From NCBI GenBank assembly GCA_965213705.1, contig OZ243913.1:3904001-3968000 (forward strand): 64,000 bases of DNA, written 5' to 3'. Shown here one piece after another: positions 3,390-49,517 of this stretch. Numbering within the stretch: position 1 is the stretch's first letter; each line of letters starts with the position of its first letter. The notes under the pieces were generated by a model. The model ran no database searches. It was not told the origin of the DNA and saw only the letters and a list, made by a program, of their open reading frames with translations. The position numbers and the translations under genes were made by a program. This stretch comes from Trueperaceae bacterium (GTDB taxonomy: Bacteria; Deinococcota; Deinococci; Deinococcales; Trueperaceae).

Positions 3390-4224
3390 GGCGCTCGAGG
3401 CGGCCCTGTTACCGCTCGTCGAACCGTTTTCCGGGCGCGTCAGCGTTGCCTTGCAAAGTTTTCAGACCCCGGAGAGCTATACCCTCGACGCGACCCGGAC
3501 GATGGGCGCGGCGAGCCTTATCAAACTGCCCCTCCTCGTTCACGCGCTTTTCGAGGTAGCGCGGGGGCGGTTGGATCTTGGAAAACGCTACTCGTTACAA
3601 AACGAAGACCGGGTCGGCGGAGCGGGCGTTTTGCACGTTCTCGAGCCCGGCCTGACCCTCACGCTGCACGACCTGCTCACCCTGATGATCGTCGTCAGCG
3701 ACAACACCGCGACGAACCTCGTGTTAGATATTTTGGGGCTGGACGCGGCCAACGCGTTCGTCCACAACCTCGGCATGGCGCAAACAAAACTCGTCGGGAA
3801 ACTGCAACTTTCTGAAGAGCGGCAGAACGAGGCCCAACGCCGGGGAATGCGCAACGCGACCTGTGCGGCGGACGTGTTGGGATTGCTGGTGCGGCTCGTG
3901 CGGCGCGAACTGCTGCCCGACGCGCTCACTGACACCGCCCTCGCCATTCTCAAAAAGCAGCAGTTCACCGAAGCCCTGGCCCGCTACTTGCCGACCGACG
4001 TGGAGCTGAATCCGGAGCACGTAACCGTGGCGAGTAAGAGCGGCTGTTTGCGGGGCTTGTGGCACGACGCGGGGATAGTCTACAGCGCCGCCGGGACGCC
4101 TCTTTACAGCCTCGTCGTAATGACCGAAGGCTCTGCCGACCGCTCGTACAGTTTCGAGCAAGAAGGCGTGATGCTGATCGCGCGGCTCTCTGAGCGCGTG
4201 TACAACCTAGTAAAAGCTGTTTGA
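3382..4224 (+). CDS. Serine hydrolase, class A beta-lactamase-like family, no signal peptide
   Basis: SxxK (ASLIK), SDN and KSG motifs; overlaps lysA stop. Confidence 0.85.
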   Translation: MTEALEAALLPLVEPFSGRVSVALQSFQTPESYTLDATRTMGAASLIKLPLLVHALFEVARGRLDLGKRYSLQNEDRVGGAGVLHVLEPGLTLTLHDLLTLMIVVSDNTATNLVLDILGLDAANAFVHNLGMAQTKLVGKLQLSEERQNEAQRRGMRNATCAADVLGLLVRLVRRELLPDALTDTALAILKKQQFTEALARYLPTDVELNPEHVTVASKSGCLRGLWHDAGIVYSAAGTPLYSLVVMTEGSADRSYSFEQEGVMLIARLSERVYNLVKAV

Positions 4225-4380
4225 GTTCGTCCCAGACGCAAACATCGGCCAAAGGTCGGCGTGGCTAACATTACTTTTCGGTTCGGCGCTTATCATGGGT
4301 TGACCGGAGGTTATGGACCGGCGCATTTCTTCGTTGTAGGTTCGGCACCTCTAAAAACTTAAACACGTCTGGGGGACAGC

Positions 4381-6849
4381 ATGAAACATTCGAAGTTTCG
4401 TCTCGCGACGCTCGGCAACTACGCACCGCGGCGTTGCGGCATCGCGACCTTTACGACCGACCTCACCAGTGCCCTGGCGCTGCAAGCCGGGGTCGAGGTG
4501 TTTGCGGTCGCCATGAACGACGACGCGCGTTACGAGTATCCGGAGCGCGTCCGTTTCAGCTTGAACCAAGAAGACTTGGAGGATTACCGCCGGGCGGCCG
4601 ATTTTTTGAACTCGAGCCTTCTCGACGCCGTGCTGTTGCAGCATGAATACGGCATCTTCGGCGGGGCGTCGGGCGCGCACGTGTTGGAGTTGTTGGACCG
4701 CTTGCGCGCGCCGGTCGTGACCACGTTCCACACGATTTTGGAACATCCTTCGGCCGAGCAGTTGGAGGTGCTGACGCAGGTGGCGGCAGCCTCCGCCCGC
4801 GTCGTCACCATGAGCGCGCAGGGCCACGAGTTTTTGCAAACCGTATACGGCGTCCCGGCACGTAAAATCGACTTTATTCACCACGGCGTTCCGGATGTTC
4901 CCTTCAGCGAGCCGCGCGGCAAGGCGGCGTTCGGCCTGGCCGGGCGGCGGGTCGTGCTCACCTTCGGGCTGCTGTCGCCGAACAAGGGCGTCGAGACGGC
5001 AATTTGCGCACTGCCGGAGGTCGCTCGTGCCCACCCGGACGTGATGTACCTCGTCCTCGGCACGACACATCCGCACGTGGTCAAGCACAGCGGCGAAGCG
5101 TACCGGGAAAGTTTGCGGGTGCTGGCCCACGGTTTGGGCGTCGCCGAAAACGTGCGCTTCGACGCCGAGTTCGTCGAGCTGAGCGAGTTGGTCCGCTACA
5201 TCGACATGGCCGACGTGTACGTGACGCCGTACCTGAACCGCGAGCAAATCACCTCGGGCACGCTCGCCTACGCGCTCGGCCTGGGCAAGGCCGTCGTCTC
5301 GACACCGTACTGGTACGCAGAAGAACTGCTGGGCGGCGGGCGCGGCGTGATTGTGCCTTTTAAGGACAGCGCGGCGCTGGCGGAAACCCTGACCTCGCTA
5401 CTCGGCGACGACGCGCGGCGCGACGCGTTGCGGCGGCGCGCTTATGCCTACGGCCGGACGATGGTTTGGAGCGAGGGCGCACGCCACTACCTGCAAAGCG
5501 CCGCGCGCGCGGCAGAGGCAGAGGTTGCGGCGGCTGCGCCGACCGGGCTTGCCACACGCTCCTCTTTGGGCGGTGGCCCGGCGGCGAAGGGGCCGTTAAG
5601 AAGTATTTCGGTGCCGAGTGTTGCGGTATCCAAAGGGTTTGCGTCTCGGCAGCCCCGAGTGCGCTCTTACCCCGTTGGAGCTTCTACCTCGCCCGCTTTC
5701 GACCTGCCTGCTTTCGACCTGCCCGCTTTCGACCTGCGCCACGTCGCAACCCTCACCGACACGACCGGCATCGTGCAGCACGCGACCTACACGGTACCCA
5801 ACTTGCACGAGGGCTACACCACCGACGACAACGCTCGAGCCCTCATGGTGAGCGTGCAAGCGCAGGCGCTGGGTTTGGCCGGTACAGAAACGCTGAACGG
5901 TCTGAGCCACCGCTACCTCGCCTTTTTGAACTACGCCTTCGACCCCGCGACGAAACGCTACCGCAACTTTATGAGCTTCGAGCGCCGCTGGTTGGAACGT
6001 GTCGGGGCCGAGAACGCCCACGCCCGCGCCCTGCGCGCCCTGGCGACGGTGCGGCGGCGCAGCGCCGAACCCGGCCTCGTCGGGACGGCCGAGCGCTTGT
6101 TTGGGGAAAGCGTCGGCCCGGCACTCGACTTTACGAGCCCGCGCGCCTGGGCCCTGACCCTGCTCGCCCTGGCCGAGTTGCCGCCGGAAGCCTTGAACCC
6201 CGACCTCACCGCCTTGGGTGAGGCCTTGCTGGCCCGGCTGCTGCGCCTCTATGACAAAAACACCTCTGCTGACTGGCCCTGGTTCGAGGACCACCTTTGT
6301 TACAGCAACGCCAAACTGCCGCACGGCGTCATCGCTTTCGGAACGGTTCTGGGCGACGAGGCGGCGGTGACGGTGGGTATAAGGGCCTTGAAGTGGCTCG
6401 CCGAGGTGCAAACTGCGCCCGAGGGACACTTCGCGCCAGTCGGCTCCGACCGGGTGTACCGGCCGGGCGACGCCAAACCGCACTTCGACCAGCAACCGGT
6501 CGAGGCCTACGCCAGCGTCGCGGCTTACCTAGCGGCCTACCAGGGCGCACGCGACGAGCGGTGGCTAACCGAGGCCCAGCGGGCGCTGGCCTGGTTTTTC
6601 GGCCGCAACGTTTCAGGCCTGACGCTGCACGACGCCGCCACGGGCGGCTGCCGCGACGGGCTGCACCACGACCGCTTGAACCAAAACGAGGGGGCGGAGT
6701 CCACGCTGTCGCTGTGGTTGGCGGTGCTCGAGTACCACCAGGTCACTGCAGACCTCACCTCACAGAAGGTCGCCGCCGAAAACCCCACCGCTGAGACTGT
6801 CGTTTCTAAAACCGGCGCTTCCAAAACCGGCGCGCTCGAGCCCCGCTAA
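4381..6849 (+). CDS. GT4 glycosyltransferase fused to C-terminal alpha/alpha-barrel glycosidase-like domain
   Basis: PRRCGIATFT, QHEYGIFGG, TSGTLAYA; C-terminal YTTDDNARAL, FDQQPVEA, NEGAESTL. Confidence 0.85.
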   Translation: MKHSKFRLATLGNYAPRRCGIATFTTDLTSALALQAGVEVFAVAMNDDARYEYPERVRFSLNQEDLEDYRRAADFLNSSLLDAVLLQHEYGIFGGASGAHVLELLDRLRAPVVTTFHTILEHPSAEQLEVLTQVAAASARVVTMSAQGHEFLQTVYGVPARKIDFIHHGVPDVPFSEPRGKAAFGLAGRRVVLTFGLLSPNKGVETAICALPEVARAHPDVMYLVLGTTHPHVVKHSGEAYRESLRVLAHGLGVAENVRFDAEFVELSELVRYIDMADVYVTPYLNREQITSGTLAYALGLGKAVVSTPYWYAEELLGGGRGVIVPFKDSAALAETLTSLLGDDARRDALRRRAYAYGRTMVWSEGARHYLQSAARAAEAEVAAAAPTGLATRSSLGGGPAAKGPLRSISVPSVAVSKGFASRQPRVRSYPVGASTSPAFDLPAFDLPAFDLRHVATLTDTTGIVQHATYTVPNLHEGYTTDDNARALMVSVQAQALGLAGTETLNGLSHRYLAFLNYAFDPATKRYRNFMSFERRWLERVGAENAHARALRALATVRRRSAEPGLVGTAERLFGESVGPALDFTSPRAWALTLLALAELPPEALNPDLTALGEALLARLLRLYDKNTSADWPWFEDHLCYSNAKLPHGVIAFGTVLGDEAAVTVGIRALKWLAEVQTAPEGHFAPVGSDRVYRPGDAKPHFDQQPVEAYASVAAYLAAYQGARDERWLTEAQRALAWFFGRNVSGLTLHDAATGGCRDGLHHDRLNQNEGAESTLSLWLAVLEYHQVTADLTSQKVAAENPTAETVVSKTGASKTGALEPR
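5692..5736 (+). repeat. Three 15-nt tandem repeats (PAFDL)3 in the interdomain linker
   Basis: cccgctttcgacctg cctgctttcgacctg cccgctttcgacctg. Confidence 0.9.
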
Positions 6850-37105: not shown

Positions 37106-38991
37106 AAGGGTTGGGCTCGAGGGGAAACTCGACAAACTGCTTTAACAGACATGCGTAGTGACGGTTGTCGGGTCGTTTTTGTGCGTTTTTTGACCGTGGT
37201 AACCTCGGGGTAAAGTACGCTTGGGAACATCTTCGACTGAGAGGGCGAGCGTGACGACACAACCGCATACCGACCTGAAGTTCTTTACCAACGAACCCGA
37301 CGCCACCCTCTACCACCGCTTCGTTAAAACCCTCGAGTACGCTTCACACTTCGATGTTCTTGTAGGCTACTTCCGCACCAGCGGCTTCCACCGGCTTTAC
37401 CGGGCTTTGGAGCGCACCGAGAAGGTCAGGATTTTGGTCGGCTTGAGCGTAGACCGCAAAGCGTTCGAGATAATTGAACAGGTGCGCGACTCAAGCAGAA
37501 TCGACTTCGAGTCGCATGAACGCACCCGGCAAGTGTTTGTCCGCAACCTCACCACCGAGATGAGCGAGTCGGAGGACACGCCGGAGGTCGAAATCTCCGC
37601 CCGTAAGTTTATCGAGTATTTAGAGTCCGGCAAGCTCGAGCTGCGCGCCTACCCGAGCCGGAACCTGCACGCCAAGGTCTACATTTCGCGCTTTCCCGAG
37701 AATTTCATGGAGTTCGGTAAAGTTATCACCGGCTCGAGCAACTTCTCGGAATCCGGTCTGGTGGCACAGCGCGAGTTCAACGTCGAACTCAAAGACCGCC
37801 CCGACGTGGAGTTTGCCCTTGCAAAGTTCGAAGAACTGTGGGCCGAAGGGGTGGACATTTCTCAGGAGTACGTGGACACGCTGCTCACAAAGACCTGGCT
37901 CTCGGACCAAATCACGCCCTATCAGCTTTACCTCAAGTTTTTGTACGAGTATTTCAAAGAGGACATAAATATAGACGAGGATGTGGACCTCTTTTTGCCT
38001 GAGGGTTATATGGATTTGGCGTACCAGAAGCAGGCGGTGTTAGCAGCTAAGAAAATAATCGAGGCTTATGGTGGCGTGTTCATCGCGGACGTGGTTGGTC
38101 TCGGCAAGACGTTTATCGCGGCGCTGCTTCTGCAGCAACTGCCGGGCCGCAAGCTCGTCATTTGCCCGCCGGTTTTGGCCGACTATTGGAAAGAAACCAT
38201 GCACCAGTTTTACGTGCCGGGTGTCGAGGTGGAGTCTTTGGGCAAGCTCGAGCAAATCTTGGAGCGGGGCGTTGAAAAGTACAGCACGGTCGTCATCGAC
38301 GAGGCGCACCGTTTCCGCAACGAACTCACCCAGGGCTACGAGACGCTTCACAAGATTTGTCGGGGCAAAAAGGTCGTGCTGGTCTCGGCGACGCCCCTGA
38401 ACAACAAGCTCGGCGACATCTTGAGCCAGCTCAAACTGTTCCAACCCGGCAAACAGAGCGCCATCCCCGGCGTGCGCAACTTAGAAGCGTTTTTCAAAAC
38501 GTTGCAGAAAAAGCTCGACAGCGTGGACAAGGACGACCCTTCGTACTTAGAACTGGTCGAAGAAACCTCCAAAGAAGTGCGGGATAAAGTCTTGAAACAC
38601 GTCATGGTACGGCGGACGCGCACCGAAATCAAAAAGTATTTCAGCGACGACTTAGAAAAGCAGGGGCTGCGCTTTCCCGAGCTAGCCAGTCCAGAGCGCA
38701 TCATTTACGAGTTCGACGGCAACATCGAAGAGGTGTTCAACACGACCATCGGTCTATTAAAAAGCTTCACTTACGCCCGCTACACCCCCCTCCTCTACCT
38801 GAAAAAAGGGCTGGGCGAGTTCGAGTTGCAGTCCCAGCGCAACATCGGCGGTTTTATGAAGGGCTTATTGGTGAAGCGTTTGGAGAGCAGCTTTTACGCC
38901 TTCAAGCAAACCGTAGACCGCTTCATCACCTCCTACCAGAACTTTCTTCACATGCTGGAGGGAGGAACCGTCTACATCAGCAAAAAGGTCG

Positions 38992-39770
38992 GGTAGTGGC
39001 CCACCATCAACTGACAGCAGCACGCTCAAGATTGTAGCGGACCAAGAACAGATGCAAGCAAATGAGGTGCATGTGTTCGGACTTGGAGAAGGATAAGGTC
39101 TTTCTGACAAAGCGCGCTAGGCGTTGGCGGATAGTATTGTTAAAGCGCTCGACGTGTGCTGTAAGCCCTGAGTCTTTACCAACAGCTTGATGCTGTTCAT
39201 CGGGAACGACGGCCTGATAAGCTTCCCAGAAGTCACTAAACACCGTGCCTTGTTTATAAGCATCTGGGATGTTACGCCAAAGTTTTTGACAAGTAGCAAT
39301 GCCACGTCCACCTACAACACAAGCGACCACCTGGCGTGTCTGCTTACAAAGCGCTATCCAGGCCCACCGTTTGTTACGTCTACATCGAACAAATGACCAC
39401 ATCTCGTCGAGTTCGAGTTGCACCGCTTCAGGGTTCTCGGGCGTAACCAGTGTGGCGCTAAGCGGCGGTGTCGTCGCGGCTTTTTTTGAGCCATTTCGCT
39501 ATTGTGGTGCGGGACACGCCGAATGTTCTGGTCAGCCCACGCATACTAGAGCGCTCCTGATACGACTTCAGTATCTCATCTTTCTTCGCTTCGCTGTACC
39601 CTTTAGTGCTCGCGTTCTCGCGACTGGACTTGCCGCACGCTCGACACAGGTACTTTTGCTTGCCGTTTGGTGCATGACCGTTCTTGACAAGCTCTTCGCT
39701 CTCGCAGTGGCAGCAACGTACAACTTTGGTGACCATTCCTTAGCTTATCAGTCTTTGCTAAACCACTACC
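38992..39770 (-). mobile_element. IS1-family insertion sequence, 779 bp
   Basis: Imperfect 23-bp TIRs starting GGTAGTGG; 8-bp TSD AAAGGTCG at 38984-38991 and 39771-39778. Confidence 0.95.
39007..39736 (-). CDS. insAB: IS1 transposase InsA-InsB joined by -1 frameshift
   Basis: InsA zinc ribbon (CCHC...CRAC) and HTH at 39458-39736; A7 slip site at 39481-39487; InsB ELDEMWSFV, SDFW, VERFN. Confidence 0.9.
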
Positions 39771-42700
39771 AAAGGTCGATGTCTACGACCTGCTGGACGG
39801 GGACGACGAAGAGAGGCTGTTGAGTTTGGTCGAGCAGGACAAGGTACAAAAGTACGCCGCTACCGAGTTCAAGTCCGACTTTGCGACGAAGTTGCGCAGC
39901 GACCTCGCGCTGCTTCAAACCGTGCAAAAGATGTGGCGGCGCATAGAAGACGACCCCAAGTTGGGGGCCTTCGAGCGGGAGCTTACGAAAAACCCGCTGC
40001 TCGAGGACAACAAGGTCATCGTGTTCAGCGAGTCGAAGGAAACGGCTCGCTATCTCTACGAACAGCTTGAAGACCGCTTTCCGAACCAGGTCTGCTTTTA
40101 TGCCAGCGGGGGCGGCGTCTACGGCGGGCAAACTTACAGCGTCGGCGCGGCCAGAGAGCTTATCCAGGCGAACTACAACCCGAACCACAGCAACCCGCGA
40201 GACGATGTCCGCATTCTGATTACCACCGACGTGCTGGCCGAAGGCATCAACCTCCACCGCTCGAACACCGTCGTCAACTACGACCTGCCCTGGAACCCGA
40301 CCCGCGTGCTGCAACGTGTCGGGCGCGTGAACCGCGTCGGCACCGAGCACAAAACCGTCTACGTGTTCAACTTTTTCCCGACCTCGCAGAGTGACGAGCA
40401 CTTAGGGTTAGAGGGCAACATCAAAGCCAAGCTGCAAGCGTTTCACGACACGTTGGGCGAGGACGCCAAGTACCTCTCCAGCGACGAAGAGGTCTCCACC
40501 CACGAGCTTTTCGGCGAGAAGTACGCCGACACGCTTTACCGCAAGCTCACCGACAAGGACGCGCTCGAGGCCGAGGAAGACGAGGCGACCGAACTCAAGT
40601 ACCTCAAACTCATCCGCGAGGTCCGGGACGAACAGCCGGACCTGTTCGAAACCGTCAAACGCCTGCCCAAAAAGGCGCGGAGCGGCAAGACGTGGCCGCA
40701 GGCGGAAAACGGGCAAGACCACCTGCTGACCTTTTTTCGCAAGGGCAAGCTCAAAAAGTTCGTGCTCGGGCGCGGCCAAGGCGAGCCGGTTGAACTCACC
40801 TTTTTGGACGCCGCCAGAATCGTCGCTTGCCGCCCCGAGACCGAGCGGTGCCAGGTGCCGAGTCCCTACTACAGTCTGCTCACGCGCAACAAAGAAGCGT
40901 TCAAACACGTCACCAGCGACGACCCGGTAGACCTGAGCGGCGGGGGCGGCGTGACCAACGAAAAACACATCTTGCAAGTGCTCAAATCCAGGGAGTTTCG
41001 GCACTTCAAGGGCTTTACCGACGAAGACGAACATTTTCTCAAGGCGGTACGCGAGGCGCTCGAGGCCGGATTGGTCGCCAAAAACACCGCCAAGCGCGTC
41101 AAGACCGACCTCAAAAACAGCTTGCAACCGCTCAAAGTCCTGGCCGTGTTGCGCAGAAACTTAGACGTTGCCCAGTTTCGGCAAACGGATGCAGAAGAGC
41201 ACCTGGACCCGCGTGAAGTGATTTTGTCCGAATACCTGGTTAGCAGTGAACCCGTAGGGAGTGAACCAGCATGAGACCCCAAGAAGCCGGCACCTTAGTC
41301 GAGGCCACCTTCAACCACAGCTATGACGAAGGGCGCTTCCGGCTGTTCGCCCGCAACTTGTTCGGCGACTTGGAGGAGAAAAGCGACCGCTGGGCCGGGA
41401 GCTATGTGCCCGAAGCTTTCCGGGGCTTTGTCAGCCAGTACGGGCGCCTGGGCAAGTTCGAGGACGCCGAGGGCTACAGCGTGGACGTGCTGGCCGTGAA
41501 GCTCAAAAGCGCCGCGCAGTTGGAACGCGCCCGTAGCGCCCAGCGCAACTTCATTGCCCGGTACTTAAACGGCGGGCGCGGCGACGTGCTCAGGGACGCC
41601 GCCCTGGTCGCGTTTTACGCCGACGACGACCCCGACTGGCGCTTCTCGCTCGTGCGGATGGACTACAGCCTCGACTTAGAGCACAACAAGCTGCGCAGAG
41701 ACCTCACCCCGGCGCGGCGCTACTCGTTTCTGGTCGGCCCGAGCGAGCGCACCCACACCGCCCAAAAGCAACTTTCCAAAGTCCTGACGGGCGACGCCCT
41801 CCCAACCCTGACCGCCCTCGAGCAAGCCTTCAACATCGAAACCGTCACCAAAGAGTTTTTCGAGAAGTACAAGGAGTTGTTCTTAAACCTCAAAGAGGCG
41901 CTGGACGCGCTGGTAGACGAGAACACGCGCGTCGCGCAAGAGTTCACGGCCAAGGACATCGACACCGCCAACTTCTCAAAACGCCTGCTCGGACAAATCG
42001 TGTTCCTGTACTTTTTGCAGAAAAAGGGCTGGCTGGGCGTGCAGCGTGGTGCGGCCTGGGTCGGCGGTCCCAAAGACTTTTTGCAGCGCCTCTTCGCCGG
42101 TGACTACGTCCGGTACGGCAACTTTTTCAACGACATTTTAGAACCCCTCTTTTACGAAGCCCTGGCCGTGGAGCGCAGCGAGCACTACTATTCCCGCTTC
42201 GACTGCGCCATCCCCTTTTTGAACGGCGGTCTGTTCGAACCCATTGGCGGCTACGACTGGGTGAACGTGGACATCCCGCTAAAGAACGAATTATTTGAGG
42301 ACATCTTCGGCGTGTTCGACCTCTACAACTTCACCGTGCGCGAGGACGAACCGCTCGACAAAGAGGTCGCGGTAGACCCCGAGATGCTGGGCAAGGTGTT
42401 CGAGAACCTGCTGGAAGTCACCGACCGCAAGAGCAGGGGAGCCTTTTACACGCCCCGCGAAATCGTCCACTACATGTGCCGGGAGAGTTTAATCAACTAC
42501 CTGGACACCGCGCTCAACACCGTCAAGCGCCCCTTGGCAAAGCAAGCCGCCAGCCAAGACGCCCTGTTCGGCAAGCCCCAGGCCCGACAAGAACCGTTGT
42601 ATGAAGAGGTCTACGAGGCGCGTGTGCCCAGAGAGGACATAGAAGCGTTCATCCGCTTAGGCGACGTGGCCCAGGAGCACGACGCCACCACGGTTCAAAA

Positions 42701-42890
42701 GGGCAAAGAGACCGAAGCCTACAGCTTCAAAACGCCCGAGAGCATCCGCGGGAGTGCCGGGGCCATCGACGACGCGCTTGCCAGCATTAAAATCTGCGAC
42801 CCGGCCATCGGTTCGGGCGCGTTCCCGGTCGGGATGATGAACGAAATCGTGCGGACACGTTCGGCGCTGACGCCGTACTTAGCTGCGGCC

Positions 42891-42985
42891 CCCCTTAACA
42901 AGGGGGGTTGGGGAGATTTAGCCCAGGCCACTCGAGAAGCAGCCGACAGAAGCAAATCCCCCCTTAGTCCCCCCTTGTTAAGGGG
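42891..42985. repeat. Palindromic REP/MITE-like element inserted in frame in the methyltransferase
   Basis: 17-bp IR ccccttaacaagggggg / ccccccttgttaagggg; encodes PLNKGGWGD...SPLSPPLLRG. Confidence 0.8.
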
Positions 42986-44070
42986 CGAAGGGAACGGACG
43001 AACCCCCTACGACTTCAAGCGCCACGCGATTCAAGAAAGCATTTACGGCGTGGACATAGACGCGAGCGCGGTGGACATCGCCAAGCTGAGGCTGTGGTTG
43101 TCGCTGGTGGTGGACGAGGACGACTTCGGGACGATTAAGCCGCTGCCGAACTTAGGTTACAAAATCGTCGAAGGCAACTCGGTGTTGAGTTTGGAAGGAG
43201 CCATCACCGACGGGCGTGAAATGCGTGACCTCGAGACCCTCAAACGCGCCTACTTCGGCGAGACCCGCGCCGGCAAAAAGCAAGAACTGAACCGGCGCAT
43301 CGACCAGACCCTCACCAACATCTTCCGGTCGGCGCAAGACTTCGGCTCGAGGGCGAACTTCGACTTTCGCATCCACTTCAGCGAGGTGTTTCACCAGCAG
43401 GGCGGCTTCGACGTGGTGATAGGCAACCCCCCCTACGTGCGCCAAGAAGCGCTGGGCGACTTGAAAGACCTGCTCAAAAAGTACGAGGCGTACCACGGCA
43501 GCGCCGACCTGTTCGTGTACTTTATCGAACTGGGCGTCAAGCTGCTCAAAAAGGGCGGCACGTTTGCCTACATCGTGGCGAACAAGTGGATGCGGGCGAA
43601 CTACGGCAAACCTCTTAGAGCGTGGCTCAAAAAGCAGCAACTTTTAACCATCATCGACTACGGCGACCTGCCCGTGTTCGAGACCGCCACCACCTACCCG
43701 TGCATTTTGTTCGTCGGCAAAGACAAGCCGAACGAAGAGGTGCAAGTGGTCAAGATGGAAGAACTCGCCTTCGAGCACTTGAGTCGCTATGTTGACGAAC
43801 GCAGCTACGCACAGACGCAGAAAGACCTCGAGGACGGCGGTTGGTCACTGGCAAACAGAGACGCGCAGAAGGTACTCGACAAAATAAGCAAGGTCGGCGT
43901 GCCCTTAGAGCAGTATATAGACGGAAAAATCTACCGTGGCGTTCTAACCGGACTCAACGAAGCCTTTGTGATTGACGAAGCAACCAAAAATAAGCTGATA
44001 GCCGAAGACCCCAAAAGCGCCGAAGTCATTAAACCGTTTTTAGCGGGGCGAGACATCAAAAAATTTTCAC

Positions 44071-44110
44071 CGCCGAAAAGCAAAAATTAGATAATTTTTG
44101 CTTTTCGGCG
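44071..44110. repeat. Perfect 19-bp inverted repeat with 2-nt spacer
   Basis: cgccgaaaagcaaaaatta-ga-taatttttgcttttcggcg. Confidence 0.95.
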
Positions 44111-44743
44111 AAATTTTGACATTGAGGAGTATCCTGCAATTAAAAAACACTTGAGCCAGTTTAAGGACAGACTCACACCCAAACCGAAAGGTTGGACGGG
44201 TGCAGACTGGCAGGGGCGGAAGCCAGGGTCTTATAAGTGGTATGAAATTCAAGACGCAGTTGATTACTATGAAGAGTTTGAAAAGCCTAAAATTATGTAT
44301 CTTGTATTTCAGGTAAGACCCACCTTTACCTTTGACTCGAGCGGAACTTACGGAAATAATGCTATCTGGATTATTCCAAAGGACGATAAATTTTTGCTGG
44401 GAGTTCTCAATTCAAAAATAGGTTGGTTCCTTATTTCTAATTACTGTACTCAAATCCAGAACGGGTATCAGCTTATCTTCAAATACCTCGGTCGAATCCC
44501 CATCCGCACCATCGACCCCTCCAACCCCTCGGACAAGCAAAAACACGATTCTATGGTGGAACGTGTCGAAACCATGCTCGCGCTGCACGAACAAAAGGGG
44601 GCGGCGACGGAGCAGGGCGAGCGCGCCCGCTTGGAGCGGGAGATTGCGGCGACGGATGAACAAATCGACACGCTTGTCTACGAGCTTTACGACCTGACGG
44701 ATGAGGAGATTGCTATGGTCGAAGAAGCGGTGGCGGGGTAGCG

Positions 44744-44992
44744 GTGAACTACGACATCGGCTTTAAACCTCGAGCGGTCAAAGACTTAAAAGCGCTAGAC
44801 CAGCGCGAAAGCGCGCGCATATCTGAAAAAATAGAGGCTATGCGGGATAACCTGACGGGAGACGTAAAAAAACTTACCGACTTTACGCCGGAGTACCGCC
44901 TACGTGTCGGCAACTACCGCGTCCTCTTTACCCTCGAAGATAATAAGGTTGTCGTTTACCGCGTTCGTCACCGCAAAGACGTGTATAGATAA
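44744..44992 (+). CDS. RelE/ParE family toxin
   Basis: RAVKDLKAL, KKL, YRLRVGNYRVLF, RHRKDVY. Confidence 0.9.
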   Translation: MNYDIGFKPRAVKDLKALDQRESARISEKIEAMRDNLTGDVKKLTDFTPEYRLRVGNYRVLFTLEDNKVVVYRVRHRKDVYR

Positions 44993-45006
44993 GAAGGGAT
45001 TGTTCC

Positions 45007-45210
45007 GTGGCCGATTTAGCTTTGCATCCAGAGTTCTTAGTCAAAAATGGCAAGAGAGAATTTGTCGTACTGCCTTACGAAGAGTTTGAGGCTTTGCAAG
45101 AAGTTCTTGCCGACGCGCAAGACCTCATCGACTTGCGAGCAGCCAAAGAAGAGGAAGGTGACGCCCCTACGCTGTCGCTGGAGGAAGTCAAGCGGCAGTT
45201 GGGCTTCTAG
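45007..45210 (+). CDS. Phd/YefM-like antitoxin
   Basis: KNGKREFVVLPYEEFEALQE; acidic tail ending SLEEVKRQLG. Confidence 0.8.
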   Translation: MADLALHPEFLVKNGKREFVVLPYEEFEALQEVLADAQDLIDLRAAKEEEGDAPTLSLEEVKRQLGF

Positions 45211-45257
45211 TTTGAAGGAGCAACCTGTGGGATTTGGACCGTCAAAGGGAGTATCGC

Positions 45258-45509
45258 ATGAGCGTTGAAGAAGCTGTTGTGGAAAAACTGCGAATGTTGC
45301 CCCCTGAGCGGCGGCGGGAGGTGCTCGAGTTTGCGGAATTTTTGGAGAGCAAGTCACATTTGCCGATAGACGAGTTCGAGCGGCTGCAAACTTTTATCGA
45401 GGACGCTCAGGACTTGTTCTTGCTTAGACAAGCAAAGGCCGAGGACGACGGCGAAAGAATTTCTCTGGCTGAGGTAGAGGCGCGTTTGGGCTTGACTGAA
45501 CAGCCGTAA
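45258..45509 (+). CDS. DUF2281-like domain fused to antitoxin-like C-terminus
   Basis: LPPERRREVLEFAEFL; C-terminal half parallels the upstream antitoxin. Confidence 0.7.
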   Translation: MSVEEAVVEKLRMLPPERRREVLEFAEFLESKSHLPIDEFERLQTFIEDAQDLFLLRQAKAEDDGERISLAEVEARLGLTEQP

Positions 45510-45519
45510 GCTATGACGC

Positions 45520-45579
45520 GAACTTTACGACCTGACGGACGAGGAAATTGAGATTCTGGAAGAATCTATCTCTAAATAG
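45520..45579 (+). repeat. Second copy of the methyltransferase 3' end (ELYDLTDEEIEILEESISK*)
   Basis: ctttacgacctgacgga identical to 44685-44701. Confidence 0.85.
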
Positions 45580-45582
45580 GGA

Positions 45583-47478
45583 CTATTCTGCTTCCGGCGC
45601 TGTGTAAGCCTGAGCCTGGTGAGATGGACTTTCAGGATAACGCATGAGCAAACGACCGTCAGTCACCAACCTACTGATGTACTGCCGAATGGTTTGCGGC
45701 TTACGGTTTAGCAGCTTTGCGATTTCACGAATGCTGAGGTGTTTGCCTCGGGCGGCTTCGATAATTGCTAGTTCCAACTGTTCCTTCGGCATCCTTTTGT
45801 ATTCACGCGCCCTCTGAATCAGCGGGTGGGCCTGTTGATTTTGAGGATTAGCCTGTTGACCTGCCTGTTGATTTTGAGGGCTAGCCTGTTGATTTTGAAG
45901 ATTAGCCTGTTGACCTCGCGTGAAGAGATTGGGTCTGTTGTCCAGCACATCGACTAGCTGATAAGTTGTGCCGCTGGCTACACCGCTGGAAACCACGAAA
46001 CCGTTTTCCTTTAGCCCACGCAGCATTTTGGTGATGTCGGCAGGGTGCTGGTCGCTCATTTCTTGCAAGCGTTTGTTACTCACCGAGCCTTCGCGCAAGG
46101 CGGTAATCAATGCCAACCTTTGGTGTTGGTCCAAAGCGGTGTAACGGTTACCGAATTTTGCCGCCAATATTTCGGTGAACTCTTCGGGTACGAGGCTTTG
46201 CATGGTCAGCTCGAGGGTGACTTGTTCGGGCTGGGTGTTTTCGCTCAAAACGGGGTCTCGCCAATCCTGAGAACGCCAGGCCCGCAGAATCTTGGGGATA
46301 CCCGTGCCCGCACGGTCAGCAGCACCAATCAGGTAAAAAATTTGGAAGAGCGCGGGATTGCGCTGATCGCTTTGTCCCCCTTGCTCGTTCAAAATCACAC
46401 TTTTGGGCAGCCGCAAGCGACCGGGGTTGACAAAGACGAACTTGTGCGCGTACTTGTGAATAAGAATACCTGTAGTAGAGCTGTGGTCGGCATGAACGAG
46501 GGCATTCACCAGGGCCTCGCGCAAGGCGCTGTGAATAGGTGTGTTGTCCACCCTACGAGCGCCTTCTAGCTGAAAAGGAACTTTTAGGTCGGCCGTCAAC
46601 TTGGCATAAACACGCCGAAAGAAGTCGTACAAGTTGCCCGACCATGCGCCGTCGTTGATAACCCGGTCGGTCCAGCGTTGCTCGGGGTCTAGGTTACGCT
46701 CTTGATAGTCGAGCTGAAAGTGGGGCAACTTCTCCTTGAGCGCCAAATGATTCCCAAAGGTGAGGAGGCCTGCCAGTGTCAGCCCCTCTCGTCCAGTCTG
46801 CCGGTCGCGCCGCCACGCCCCTATAGACGTAAGAAAGTCCAAATCATCCTGGGTAGCCCTGTTACCGCCAGAACGTTCTAAACGGAACTCTTGACGGTAG
46901 GCGTCTAAGGATTCCCTACTCAGGTCACTCAGCGTGTAGTGCTCGAGGATGTCGTTGTCTTTGGTATCGTCACTCGCCTCGGCAAACATCCGGCGTACTG
47001 TCGCCTCACTGCAAAGGTGGTCGCCGTCGTTGAAGCGCTGGTAAGTACCACGCATAGGATTGTCGTTGATGTAGACAGGGCGGTCTTTGCGGGTAGCAGG
47101 TGGCACGTGAAGGATGAGCAGGTGGGCATCCTCACAAACGAGATGTTGGACATGCTGATTAGTTAGGATATTTTTGTTGACCTTGCTCTTATTGTTGACT
47201 GTGTTCCAGAAGTCTTTTTCTAGGTTTGTCACGCTCTGAAGACCTATGGGCTGCAACGTGCCGTCGTCAAGTTCCTTAGCACCGAGCACTATCTTACCGC
47301 CTTGGGTGTTGGAGAACGAACTGTAACTTTCCCAAATACTCTTGGGAAGTTTGCCCTCACCCTCTCTACCTCGCGCATCTTTTACTTCACACTGATACGA
47401 CTCCGTCAGGGTGTTCAGCTCATCACAATCTATCTGTTCCGGGTTGTTTCGTCTTTGAAATGTAGGTGCTGCACCCAT
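45583..47478 (-). CDS. AlbA_2/Schlafen-like domain + HATPase_c_4 + winged HTH protein
   Basis: EVK...YSSFSNTQGGKIVLG; REALVNALVHAD; RNP; DRAGTGIPKI; C-terminal HTH. Confidence 0.8.
   Translation of the reverse strand: MGAAPTFQRRNNPEQIDCDELNTLTESYQCEVKDARGREGEGKLPKSIWESYSSFSNTQGGKIVLGAKELDDGTLQPIGLQSVTNLEKDFWNTVNNKSKVNKNILTNQHVQHLVCEDAHLLILHVPPATRKDRPVYINDNPMRGTYQRFNDGDHLCSEATVRRMFAEASDDTKDNDILEHYTLSDLSRESLDAYRQEFRLERSGGNRATQDDLDFLTSIGAWRRDRQTGREGLTLAGLLTFGNHLALKEKLPHFQLDYQERNLDPEQRWTDRVINDGAWSGNLYDFFRRVYAKLTADLKVPFQLEGARRVDNTPIHSALREALVNALVHADHSSTTGILIHKYAHKFVFVNPGRLRLPKSVILNEQGGQSDQRNPALFQIFYLIGAADRAGTGIPKILRAWRSQDWRDPVLSENTQPEQVTLELTMQSLVPEEFTEILAAKFGNRYTALDQHQRLALITALREGSVSNKRLQEMSDQHPADITKMLRGLKENGFVVSSGVASGTTYQLVDVLDNRPNLFTRGQQANLQNQQASPQNQQAGQQANPQNQQAHPLIQRAREYKRMPKEQLELAIIEAARGKHLSIREIAKLLNRKPQTIRQYISRLVTDGRLLMRYPESPSHQAQAYTAPEAE
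45830..45916 (-). repeat. Gln-rich tandem repeats (QQANLQN-type, mostly 21 nt) in linker
   Basis: Repeated gcctgttgattttga/gcctgttgacct units. Confidence 0.85.
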
Positions 47479-47765
47479 CAGAAAATTTTAGCATCTCCCG
47501 ATCCAGGGCATTTACCTGAAACGTAGCAACGCTCGAGCGGATGAAAACGGCTTGAGTGTTGTTACGGGCGTTGAAAAAACCCTGTCGAGGGCGCAACGAG
47601 AGGAGCGCGCTGGTATCCCGGTGACTCTAAGGGAATTGAATCTTAGTTCTAAAATGTAATCGGATGCAATCCAGATGCAATTAAATTGAAAAATTAAGTC
47701 CAGCACGGCAAAAGATACAAATCCACCGAAGCTCAAACATGCAATAAATAGCCAGTAACAGAGCA

Positions 47766-47996
47766 TCTGTCCCTTACACATTGAGCCAACCCTGGCGACC
47801 GAGCCACCTATGGGATGGTTAGAATGGTTAACACATGCTGGACCCACAACGACAAAAAGCTACAGAGCAGGGCGAGCGCGCTCGCTTAGAGCGCGAGATT
47901 GCGGCGACGGACGCTGCTATCGACGCGCTTGTTTATGAGCTTTACGACCTGACGGACGAGGAGATTGCTATTGTCGAAAATTCTACAGCGCGGTAA
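47766..47996 (+). pseudogene. Third, longer copy of the methyltransferase 3' end with decayed 5' side
   Basis: ATEQGERARLEREIAATDAAIDALVYELYDLTDEEIAIVE* vs ATEQGERARLEREIAATDEQIDTLVYELYDLTDEEIAMVE; frameshifted NPGDRA..MV..V..ML upstream. Confidence 0.9.
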
Positions 47997-48031
47997 GGTA
48001 AGGGCAACATGAAGCATTTTTGTGATATAGC

Positions 48032-48060
48032 TTGCCAAAATATTCTATATATGTTATATT
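48032..48060 (+). promoter_or_regulatory. Promoter with overlapping imperfect palindrome for the TAC operon
   Basis: TTGCCA-17 bp-TATATT with TGn extension; aatattctatatatgttatatt. Confidence 0.55.
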
Positions 48061-48076
48061 ATGGTTGGTACGATTA

Positions 48077-48463
48077 GTGAAGGAGTCTTGGCGTGTTGCT
48101 TACTTCAAAGATGAGAAAGGTAGTGTTCCCGTCAAGGAATTTTTCGAGCTACCGAGCGTTATAGGTATTACTGAAGGTGAGAAGAAAGTGTTTAAACAGC
48201 GTTTAAAGTGGGTACGGCAAAGAGGGTTAGGACTTGCTGAAAGGCGGGGTGATGTTTTGGAACATCTCAAGAACGAAGGAAACCTTTATTCGCTTCGCAT
48301 TCCCAGCAAACCGAACAACCCTCGCGTTCTACTCTGCTCTATTCCAGGCAGTAATCAATTCGCTTTGCTGCACGCCTTTAAAGAGAAAAACTCGCGCGAT
48401 TACAAGAGAGCAATCAGTGTAGCCAAAGGACGACGAGACCGACTTCTCGCAACTGTAAAGTGA
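48077..48463 (+). CDS. HigB/RelE (Gp49-like) toxin
   Basis: WRVAYFKDEKGSVPVKEF, LYSLR, LLHAFKEK, IxxAxxR; GTG start chosen. Confidence 0.8.
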   Translation: MKESWRVAYFKDEKGSVPVKEFFELPSVIGITEGEKKVFKQRLKWVRQRGLGLAERRGDVLEHLKNEGNLYSLRIPSKPNNPRVLLCSIPGSNQFALLHAFKEKNSRDYKRAISVAKGRRDRLLATVK

Positions 48464-48480
48464 AGACTGGAGCTGTACTC

Positions 48481-49014
48481 ATGGCAAAAGATGAAACTAC
48501 AAACAATACCTACTTGGACTCTGAAACGGACGTGTTGGAGCATTTGGGCAGCCTGATTCCTGATACGCCCGAAATGCGCCGCGTGGGTAAGCAGGAGTGG
48601 TTCCGCTTGCTGTTGACGGACGCCATGATAGAAGCGCGCAAGCGTGCCGGTTTGACGCAGAAAGAAGTCGCTAAAGAACTCGGCGCAACCCAGAGCTGGG
48701 TGTCCAAGCTCGAGAGCGCCAACCACGACCACGGGGTCGAGTCGGTGGTGTCTCACCTGGACGCAGTCGGGGCTGAACTGCTGATGGCGGTCAAGGTCGG
48801 CGATGATTTGATTCAGGTCGAAACCAGTGAAGAAGATGTCCTGGTGAACATTCCTGTCTGCTACCAGGATGAGGCTTTAGAAGCCGGTATGACCTTGCGA
48901 GATTTCATCTGCTCACGGCTCGAGGAATACCGTTGGAGAGATGGTGTGAGCGTTTTCGACGTGCCGGAGGGCTTCGCTCGGTTTGATACTGAAGAGGGCT
49001 ATACCCTCCGCTGA
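48481..49014 (+). CDS. HigA-like Xre HTH antitoxin with C-terminal extension
   Basis: ARKRAGLTQKEVAKELGATQSWVSKLE; about 70 extra residues after the HTH domain. Confidence 0.8.
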   Translation: MAKDETTNNTYLDSETDVLEHLGSLIPDTPEMRRVGKQEWFRLLLTDAMIEARKRAGLTQKEVAKELGATQSWVSKLESANHDHGVESVVSHLDAVGAELLMAVKVGDDLIQVETSEEDVLVNIPVCYQDEALEAGMTLRDFICSRLEEYRWRDGVSVFDVPEGFARFDTEEGYTLR

Positions 49015-49517
49015 TGCCCACAGCAAAACCGAAACCTAAAACAGTACAAGTCACGCCCGAAGCCTACAACACCTTTTTGCAAGGGCTCGAGCTGAAACGG
49101 GTGCGACTGGCTTCCGCCAAGGTGAAGACCGAAGTAGACCATCCTGCACCCTCCGAAACTGAAATTCGCGCCGAGTACGAACGGGATTTTGAAAATGATG
49201 AGGGTGGTTTTGAAGCTTTTGCCAGCTATAGGCTCGAGTTTGTGAAAATAGAAACCGGTGAGGTTCAAGGTGTTGTCGAAGCGACCTTCGGGTTACAATT
49301 CGACAGTCCCGAGCCAATGCGTGAAGATATTTTTGAAATCTTCGGTGAGTTGAACTTGAAAGTCAACTCCTGGCCTTATGCCAGAGAGTACGTGCAAACC
49401 AACATGGGGCGGATGGATTGGCCGGGCTTCACGCTACCGCTTATGAAACCCTCGCTACCCAAACCTGAGCCTGCAGCAGTCGCCAAGCCAAAACGAAAGA
49501 GCAAGAAGAAAGTTTGA
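49014..49517 (+). CDS. SecB-like chaperone
   Basis: Beta-rich core followed by WPYAREYVQTNMGRMDWPGFTLP, like SecB PYxRE...P.l.LP; TGATG coupling. Confidence 0.75.
   Translation: MPTAKPKPKTVQVTPEAYNTFLQGLELKRVRLASAKVKTEVDHPAPSETEIRAEYERDFENDEGGFEAFASYRLEFVKIETGEVQGVVEATFGLQFDSPEPMREDIFEIFGELNLKVNSWPYAREYVQTNMGRMDWPGFTLPLMKPSLPKPEPAAVAKPKRKSKKKV

What the first reader, a model, noticed from the sequence alone, without database searches (positions are those of the whole stretch)
44061..44120. Stop codon at the centre of a perfect palindrome: inversion restores the methyltransferase
Seen: arms 44071-44089 and 44092-44110 are exact reverse complements around a 2-nt spacer GA. The present orientation reads aat TAG ata (K-N-stop-I-I-F). 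Inverting changes only GA to TC, giving aat TAT CTA att ttt (K-N-Y-L-I-F-A-F-R-R) and one 1156-aa ORF including the TRD. YLIF..RR fits my recollection of this segment in TaqI_C-type enzymes. Near-direct repeats aaattttcac/aaattttgac flank the hairpin. Inference: a template-switch micro-inversion, possibly a reversible recombinase-free ON/OFF switch for the RM system, or a one-off mutation or assembly artefact.
Basis: partly seen in the sequence, partly recalled or inferred. Interest (0 to 1): 0.8.

Follow-up and report, generated by a model that had tools for sequence, protein, structure and literature searches.

The report
Palindrome flip stops a DNA methylase
A bacterial DNA-methylase gene is cut short by a stop codon at the exact centre of a perfect 40-base palindrome; a replication slip likely flipped the two middle bases, the sample likely holds both forms, and the site looks more like a reversible mutation hot spot in a decaying defence locus than a purpose-built switch.

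Summary
Observation confirmed: 19-bp perfect arms around GA, with TAG at codon 940 of a 1156-codon adenine methyltransferase. The flipped form (Tyr-Leu) is the family consensus: 156 of 260 homologues, against 8 for all one-base reversions. It is the only one of 1326 palindromes in the genome where a flip removes a stop from a long frame. One run's contig reads GA. A deeper run of the same sample breaks exactly as modelled when both forms are present, but fold-back library chimeras give identical words, so true flipped molecules are likely, not proven. Two intact relatives encode a palindrome-compatible peptide here, and a third ends at the same residue (DNA not seen). Against a selected switch: 27 aligned loci from the same phylum lack the palindrome, the partner nuclease-helicase is broken by a young IS1, and no switching rate or methylation is shown. 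Best reading: reversible template-switch spacer inversion, known from yeast. This scan has reported the same class before in phages and cyanobacteria; a bacterial stop-codon case was not found in print in my searches.

The parts
44071..44089 (.). left arm of the perfect inverted repeat (covers codons P-P-K-S-K-N and the TA of codon 940)
44090..44091 (.). 2-nt spacer GA; the reverse-complement state TC gives Tyr-Leu at codons 940-941
44092..44110 (.). right arm of the perfect inverted repeat
44088..44090 (+). in-frame TAG, codon 940, in a predicted beta-strand (939-942) early in the TaqI_C-type specificity domain (921-1078)
41271..44090 (+). N6-adenine methyltransferase, truncated 939-aa product; Eco57I-type catalytic domain complete
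44091..44741 (+). stranded 3' part of the gene, 216 residues after codon 940: most of the specificity domain and the C-terminal helices; no other stop or frameshift
37221..38991 (+). 5' part of the partner PLD-nuclease/SNF2-helicase gene
38992..39770 (-). IS1-family element with an 8-bp target duplication AAAGGTCG, splitting the helicase; 9 copies of 99.4-100% identity in the genome
39771..41274 (+). 3' part of the partner helicase gene, overlapping the methyltransferase start by 4 nt

Best explanation
A perfect 19-2-19 palindrome lies in the specificity-domain coding region of an adenine methyltransferase, and its two middle bases likely flipped from TC (Tyr-Leu, intact gene) to GA (stop) by a double template switch at the replication fork, giving a site that would be reversible without any enzyme and that likely exists in both forms in the sampled population. 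Shown: the palindrome, the stop, the consensus YL, the GA contig, the break pattern in the deeper run, and the IS1 in the partner gene. Inferred: (1) TC is ancestral; (2) the nascent strand leaves its template in the first arm, copies the spacer backwards from the sister strand and returns in the second arm; (3) the stop removes most of the DNA-recognition domain, so specific methylation is lost; (4) the stop allele could rise because the partner nuclease-helicase is already broken, so this is a mutation hot spot under relaxed selection rather than an evolved switch. The order of the IS insertion and the flip is unknown.
For: YL in 156 of 260 homologues, Leu at the second position in 232 and Ile in 9; one-base reversions of the stop give YI (6), LI (2), or KI, QI, EI, SI, WI (0 each). 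No stop in the other 28 of 29 matches from 364 genomes. Run X2: contigs 43952-44100 (0 differences) and 44081-45135 (2 differences). A 31-mer model breaks at these places only with both forms present, and 1 of 11 pruning models gives exactly 0 and 2 differences. P0061 and P0028 have 7 and 6 consecutive residue pairs compatible with reverse-complement codons around this centre; the other 258 have at most 3. The pairs co-vary (N-I here, N-V there; P-R here, A-G or S-G there). P0191 ends at the same residue and is sister to intact P0061. IS1 insertion with target duplication; the helicase-methylase pair is intact in G004 and G035. Same geometry, including 2-bp spacers and reversals, in yeast genes (PMC8604942, section 6).
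Against: Fold-back chimeras give the same 22 new 31-mers as true flipped molecules, and library artefacts at palindrome centres are described (PMC10908179, passages). The places of the 2 differences in X2 were not printed; they are inferred. X1 shows only GA. X1 and X2 are one sample and may be the source of the assembly. No control palindrome was examined in these runs. No DNA was seen for P0028, P0061 or P0191; P0191 may end at a contig end, and it also lacks the SAM-binding segment. No intact sister allele was found at DNA level.
Confidence: 0.52

Rival explanations
1. One flip, now fixed. Every cell carries the stop, the locus is a young pseudogene pair, and the TC words in run X2 come from fold-back molecules made during library preparation or sequencing.
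For: Fold-back and flip words are identical. X1 gives one clean GA contig. The partner is IS-broken. Artefacts at palindrome centres are documented.
Against: The described artefacts are of low allele frequency, whereas X2's contig kept the TC branch and lost the GA branch. For a coverage-based cleaner that suggests comparable abundance (the paper says Minia3 follows SPAdes heuristics; the rule itself is recalled and the parameters were not seen).
Confidence: 0.24
2. A selected, recombinase-free ON/OFF switch. The hairpin-bearing specificity module is kept because it toggles the restriction-modification system, as simple repeats do in phase-variable methylases.
For: Both forms likely in one sample. 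The hairpin-type peptide sits on three different catalytic scaffolds, two intact and two cut at the same residue. It is the only such site of 1326 in the genome. Phase-variable type IIG enzymes exist (PMC4889913, abstract).
Against: No palindrome in 27 aligned homologous loci, and 258 of 260 proteins lack the signature. Both cut copies carry other damage (IS1 in the partner; missing segment in P0191). Leu as CTA at this codon, which makes the flip a stop, also occurs in 4 of 27 loci without a hairpin, so a stop on flipping needs no design. No rate or methylome data.
Confidence: 0.18
3. The gene is intact in the organism and GA is a sequencing or polishing error at the hairpin.
For: The word-level argument is symmetric: fold-back of a TC genome would create GA words (follows).
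Against: The assembly, X1's contig with both flanks and X2's left contig all read GA. No other such error among 1326 palindromes.
Confidence: 0.04
4. Two independent point mutations, or amber read-through, or translation of the tail as a separate protein.
For: YI occurs in 6 of 260 homologues. A 196-aa TTG-started ORF follows at 44151.
Against: One flip explains both bases and the X2 pattern. No tRNA with a CUA anticodon among 42. The downstream start skips residues 940-960. The promoter-like hit is at chance level (1 found, 0.5 expected).
Confidence: 0.02

Closest known systems
Inverted-repeat spacer inversion by intermolecular template switching in yeast coding DNA (Abraham and Hazkani-Covo 2021, PMC8604942; passages and section 6 read)
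   Same: Perfect arms over 9 bp, 2-5 bp spacer, only the spacer changes, repeated and reversed flips (SPO75, 2-bp spacer; ECM30 ga to tc).
   Different: There the flips give amino-acid changes, and gene sets with premature stops were excluded. Here one state is a stop, in a bacterial chromosomal methylase, with longer arms (19 against 10-16).
Intragenic invertons (PhaVa; PMC10028968; passages read)
   Same: An inversion between inverted repeats inside a gene makes a premature stop; both orientations in one population.
   Different: Presumed invertase-driven, with longer segments (57 bp in one example). Here the segment is 2 bp and no recombinase lies near.
Phase-variable type IIG enzyme Cj0031 and other phasevarions (PMC4889913; abstract and outline only)
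   Same: An on/off change in a methyltransferase gene would change the methylome and phage restriction.
   Different: Those switch by simple-repeat slippage or recombinases (recalled) at measured rates in working systems. Here no rate is known and the partner is broken.
Eco57I/TaqI-type (gamma-class) N6-adenine methyltransferases: CamA 7LNI, M.BseCI, MmeI 5HR4, BrxX; PADLOC REase_MTase_IIG PDLC03596
   Same: Catalytic plus specificity fold.
   Different: No nuclease domain detected in the N-terminus; it is paired with a PLD-SNF2 helicase that scores below all curated DISARM, Dpd and anti-phage PLD cut-offs.
Earlier findings of this scan (e1-5847237, e1-6423837, e1-8289150, e1-5947598, e1-8193358; listings only)
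   Same: A stop codon at the centre of a perfect coding palindrome, two of them in phage methylases.
   Different: This one is chromosomal, has a two-form signal within one sample, and has protein-level signs that the hairpin module moved between enzymes.

Membership tests
Template-switch spacer inversion | perfect arms longer than 9 bp with a short asymmetric spacer | tested here: met
   19-2-19; criteria from PMC8604942
Template-switch spacer inversion | the other allele is the reverse complement of the spacer with arms unchanged | tested here: inconclusive
   X2 contig with 2 differences fits the model exactly, but the places were not printed and fold-back gives the same words; protein consensus agrees
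Template-switch spacer inversion | a sister strain carries the parent allele in DNA | tested here: inconclusive
   none found; close intact relatives known only as proteins
Template-switch spacer inversion | replication-dependent, recombinase-independent event | not testable with these tools
   needs a reporter assay
Recombinase-driven inverton | a linked or cognate invertase | tested here: not met
   nearest tyrosine recombinase about 220 kb away, nearest serine recombinase about 500 kb away; an unlinked enzyme is not excluded
Recombinase-driven inverton | segment long enough for the two sites to pair | tested here: not met
   2 bp between arms; the length need is recalled, not from a call
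Phase-variable restriction-modification (phasevarion) | reversible high-frequency switching in a population | tested here: inconclusive
   two-form signal in 1 of 2 covering runs; no rate
Phase-variable restriction-modification (phasevarion) | methylation pattern differs between states | not testable with these tools
   no methylome data
Phase-variable restriction-modification (phasevarion) | otherwise intact system | tested here: not met
   partner helicase-nuclease split by IS1 in the assembly; whether the IS is fixed was not tested
Type IIG enzyme | methyltransferase and specificity domain in one chain | tested here: met
   PF07669 590-803 and PF12950 921-1078 on read-through
Type IIG enzyme | N-terminal PD-(D/E)XK nuclease in the same chain | tested here: inconclusive
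   best PADLOC hit is a IIG model, but no Pfam nuclease hit and no conserved acidic motif by eye in 21 N-terminal homologues
DISARM / BREX | DrmD/DrmMI or PglX above curated cut-off | tested here: not met
   all hits far below cut-off, also for the intact G004 helicase

The most novel reading that the evidence does not exclude
The hairpin-bearing specificity segment is a portable, enzyme-free ON/OFF cassette. It travels between methyltransferases by domain exchange, is re-perfected by template switching, and flips between Tyr/Phe-Leu and a stop often enough that a population carries both methylation states: a third route to phase-variable restriction-modification besides simple repeats and invertases.
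Probability: 0.2. Interest if true: 0.8.

Novelty: new variant of a known kind. Interest (0 to 1): 0.5.

Why it matters
If both forms are real, this is a complete bacterial chromosome in which a palindrome-centre flip toggles a stop codon within one natural population, which is directly countable in existing raw reads. That tests whether template-switch flips are frequent enough to act as phase variation. It is also a practical warning: such genes get annotated as pseudogenes, and 31-mer assemblies cannot tell a flip from a fold-back artefact. If the stop is fixed, it is an ordinary young pseudogene with a neat mutational cause.

Tried and rejected
Exact arm scan of metagenome contigs: 29 hits, 0 homologous. 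Degenerate peptide-pattern scan of genomes: 53 hits, 0 homologous; of viral contigs: 0 hits. Three viral-contig homologues have no hairpin-type peptide. Plasmids: no match. DNA search of 61 relatives and 128 family genomes: the closest (G004, 80-83%) stops matching at about 44059, just left of the hairpin, and none covers the hairpin at high identity. The full-length form is not in the cluster of the 939-aa protein (2 members); the other member, P0152, ends before this region. No RNA holder listed; runs X3 and X4 do not cover the site. No Rfam match and no terminator. An allele fraction from contig depth was considered and dropped: 11 words in a 119-word contig lie within local noise. PMC2853133 has no mention of helicase, SNF2 or phospholipase. 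The control on other palindromes in the same runs and a search of 50%-cluster representatives were not obtained, so run-wide artefact and further truncated relatives stay unchecked.

Full report
Observation. The arms 44071-44089 and 44092-44110 are exact reverse complements around GA. The stop TAG (44088-44090) ends a 939-aa ORF; read through, the frame gives 1156 aa with no other break. Flipping the palindrome changes only 44090-44091. None of 200 synonymous-codon shuffles of the gene gave an arm over 13. The genome is one contig of 4.25 Mb and 61% GC. It holds 24 perfect repeats with arms of 19 or more among 155 listed, many terminator-like by eye. Among 1326 perfect repeats with arms of 8 or more, this is the only one where a flip removes a stop inside a long frame; 22 would gain one. 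The organism is probably of the Deinococcus-Thermus group; this rests on an earlier scan note on the same genome and was not tested.

The gene. It is an Eco57I/TaqI-type N6-adenine methyltransferase (PF07669 at 590-803, PF12950 at 921-1078), with best PADLOC match to a type IIG model. The model from a 60-row alignment (pLDDT 82) matches CamA, M.BseCI, MmeI and BrxX and puts residues 939-942 in a strand. The stop removes 217 residues, including most of the specificity domain, so loss of sequence-specific methylation is inferred. An N-terminal nuclease was not demonstrated. The upstream partner is a PLD-nuclease/SNF2 helicase, split by an IS1 element at 38992-39770 with an 8-bp target duplication; without it the frame is 1088 aa. 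The IS has 9 copies of 99.4-100% identity, so it is young. G004 and G035 carry the pair intact.

Which state is ancestral. Of 261 homologous proteins from three searches, 260 aligned at this place. The pair is YL in 156 and FL in 62; the second residue is Leu in 232 and Ile in 9. One-base reversions of the stop would give YI (6), LI (2) or pairs never seen. A flip gives YL in one step. Among 364 genomes of the phylum, 26 match, and only this genome's match of 29 has a stop.

Is the palindrome shared? Not in DNA that I could see. Of 28 other loci, 27 aligned (two show the same segment); their longest perfect arm within 25 nt is 7 or less. At protein level, two intact relatives stand out. P0061 (SPKSKN-FL-VFAFRGF) and P0028 (APKSKN-FL-VFAFRG) have 7 and 6 consecutive residue pairs that reverse-complement codons can encode; the other 258 have at most 3. 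The pairs differ from this gene's in step (N-I against N-V; P-R against A-G or S-G), which suggests an old palindrome that is re-perfected. This is inferred from peptides alone. A third protein, P0191, ends at exactly PPKSKN, 1 of 261. It is 90% identical to P0061 over its last 238 residues and 64-66% to this protein. In a 36-row tree of the catalytic body (30 best hits, the hairpin-type rows and 5 loci) the four hairpin-type proteins need 3 changes, and P0191 groups with P0061 at 100/99; shuffles were as low in 58 of 500. The segment therefore likely moves between enzymes, which fits the drop to 40-42% GC after 44021 and the end of DNA similarity to G004 at 44059. P0191 may be a second stop allele, the same allele moved, or a contig end; it also lacks the N-terminus and the SAM-binding segment.

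Reads. Two runs of one sample hold the stretch, both kept as contigs. X1 (depth about 100) has one contig 43652-45135 with no difference, so GA is real in the data. X2 (depth about 500) has 43952-44100 with 0 differences and 44081-45135 with 2 (22 pieces shown, 91 not). A 31-mer graph has no break with either form alone and breaks at 44100 and 44081 with both. Of 11 pruning models, only removal of the left TC branch and the right GA branch gives 0 and 2 differences at those ends. The bin depth, 619, is explained by these two contigs (617). So TC words exist in X2. That a cleaner kept them over GA suggests they are common; the Logan paper says only that Minia3 follows SPAdes heuristics (one passage), and the rest is recalled. 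The limit is firm: fold-back molecules give the same 22 new words, and such artefacts occur at palindrome centres, at low frequency (PMC10908179, passages). No control palindrome was examined in these runs, and the runs may be the assembly's source.

Mechanism. A 2-bp segment is too short for an invertase (recalled), and the nearest recombinase genes are about 220 and 500 kb away. Intermolecular template switching inverts short spacers between perfect arms, repeatedly and reversibly, in yeast genes (PMC8604942, section 6). I take this as the cause, at about 0.9 for the origin of the stop. Coexistence of both forms I put at about 0.6-0.7. A selected switch is the weaker reading (0.18): the palindrome is rare in the family, both cut copies show other damage, and CTA leucine at this codon occurs in 4 of 27 hairpin-free loci. 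No amber suppressor was found among 42 tRNAs.

Novelty. The mechanism is known. A stop-toggling spacer flip in a bacterial methylase was not found in seven literature searches (listings only), in a library that lacks most subscription papers; no supplements were opened. Intragenic invertons with premature stops (PMC10028968, passages) and a phase-variable type IIG enzyme (PMC4889913, abstract) are the functional neighbours. This scan has noted the class at least seven times in other DNA (unchecked notes). What this case adds is a two-form signal within one sample and signs of a mobile hairpin module. Verdict: real, a new variant of a known kind, interest 0.5.

Noticed in passing
window 42888-42990: In-frame hairpin insert (17-nt perfect arms, 61-nt spacer) in the methyltransferase, residues about 540-575, low pLDDT; related sequences at about 7 other places in the genome; also present in P0152.
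   Followed up: partly
window 47838-47995 and 45520-45568: Remnants of the methyltransferase 3' end (76% protein identity over 51 aa; 82% DNA over 137 nt) downstream of the gene, suggesting earlier replacements of the 3' end.
   Followed up: partly
P0061; L135 (G035) about 4051-4637: Homologues carry long in-frame inserts just before the NPPY motif: a Y1-transposase-like domain (PF01797) in P0061 and about 200 aa in G035.
   Followed up: no
L052/L072 (G080:C3:158906-163360): Two tandem specificity-domain regions about 940 nt apart beside one methyltransferase, a possible silent-cassette arrangement.
   Followed up: no
window 44744-49517: Small island after the methylase: ParE toxin, DUF2281 protein, Schlafen/RecG-like protein on the minus strand, Gp49-like toxin with HTH partner, and a 167-aa protein without Pfam match.
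   Followed up: no
G000:C1:1301023-1301067: Another 19-nt perfect repeat (7-nt spacer) inside a long open frame, where a flip would create a stop.
   Followed up: no
G000:C1 ends (4246458-4246949 and 1-291): One IS1 copy is split across the contig ends, so the assembly is circular.
   Followed up: yes
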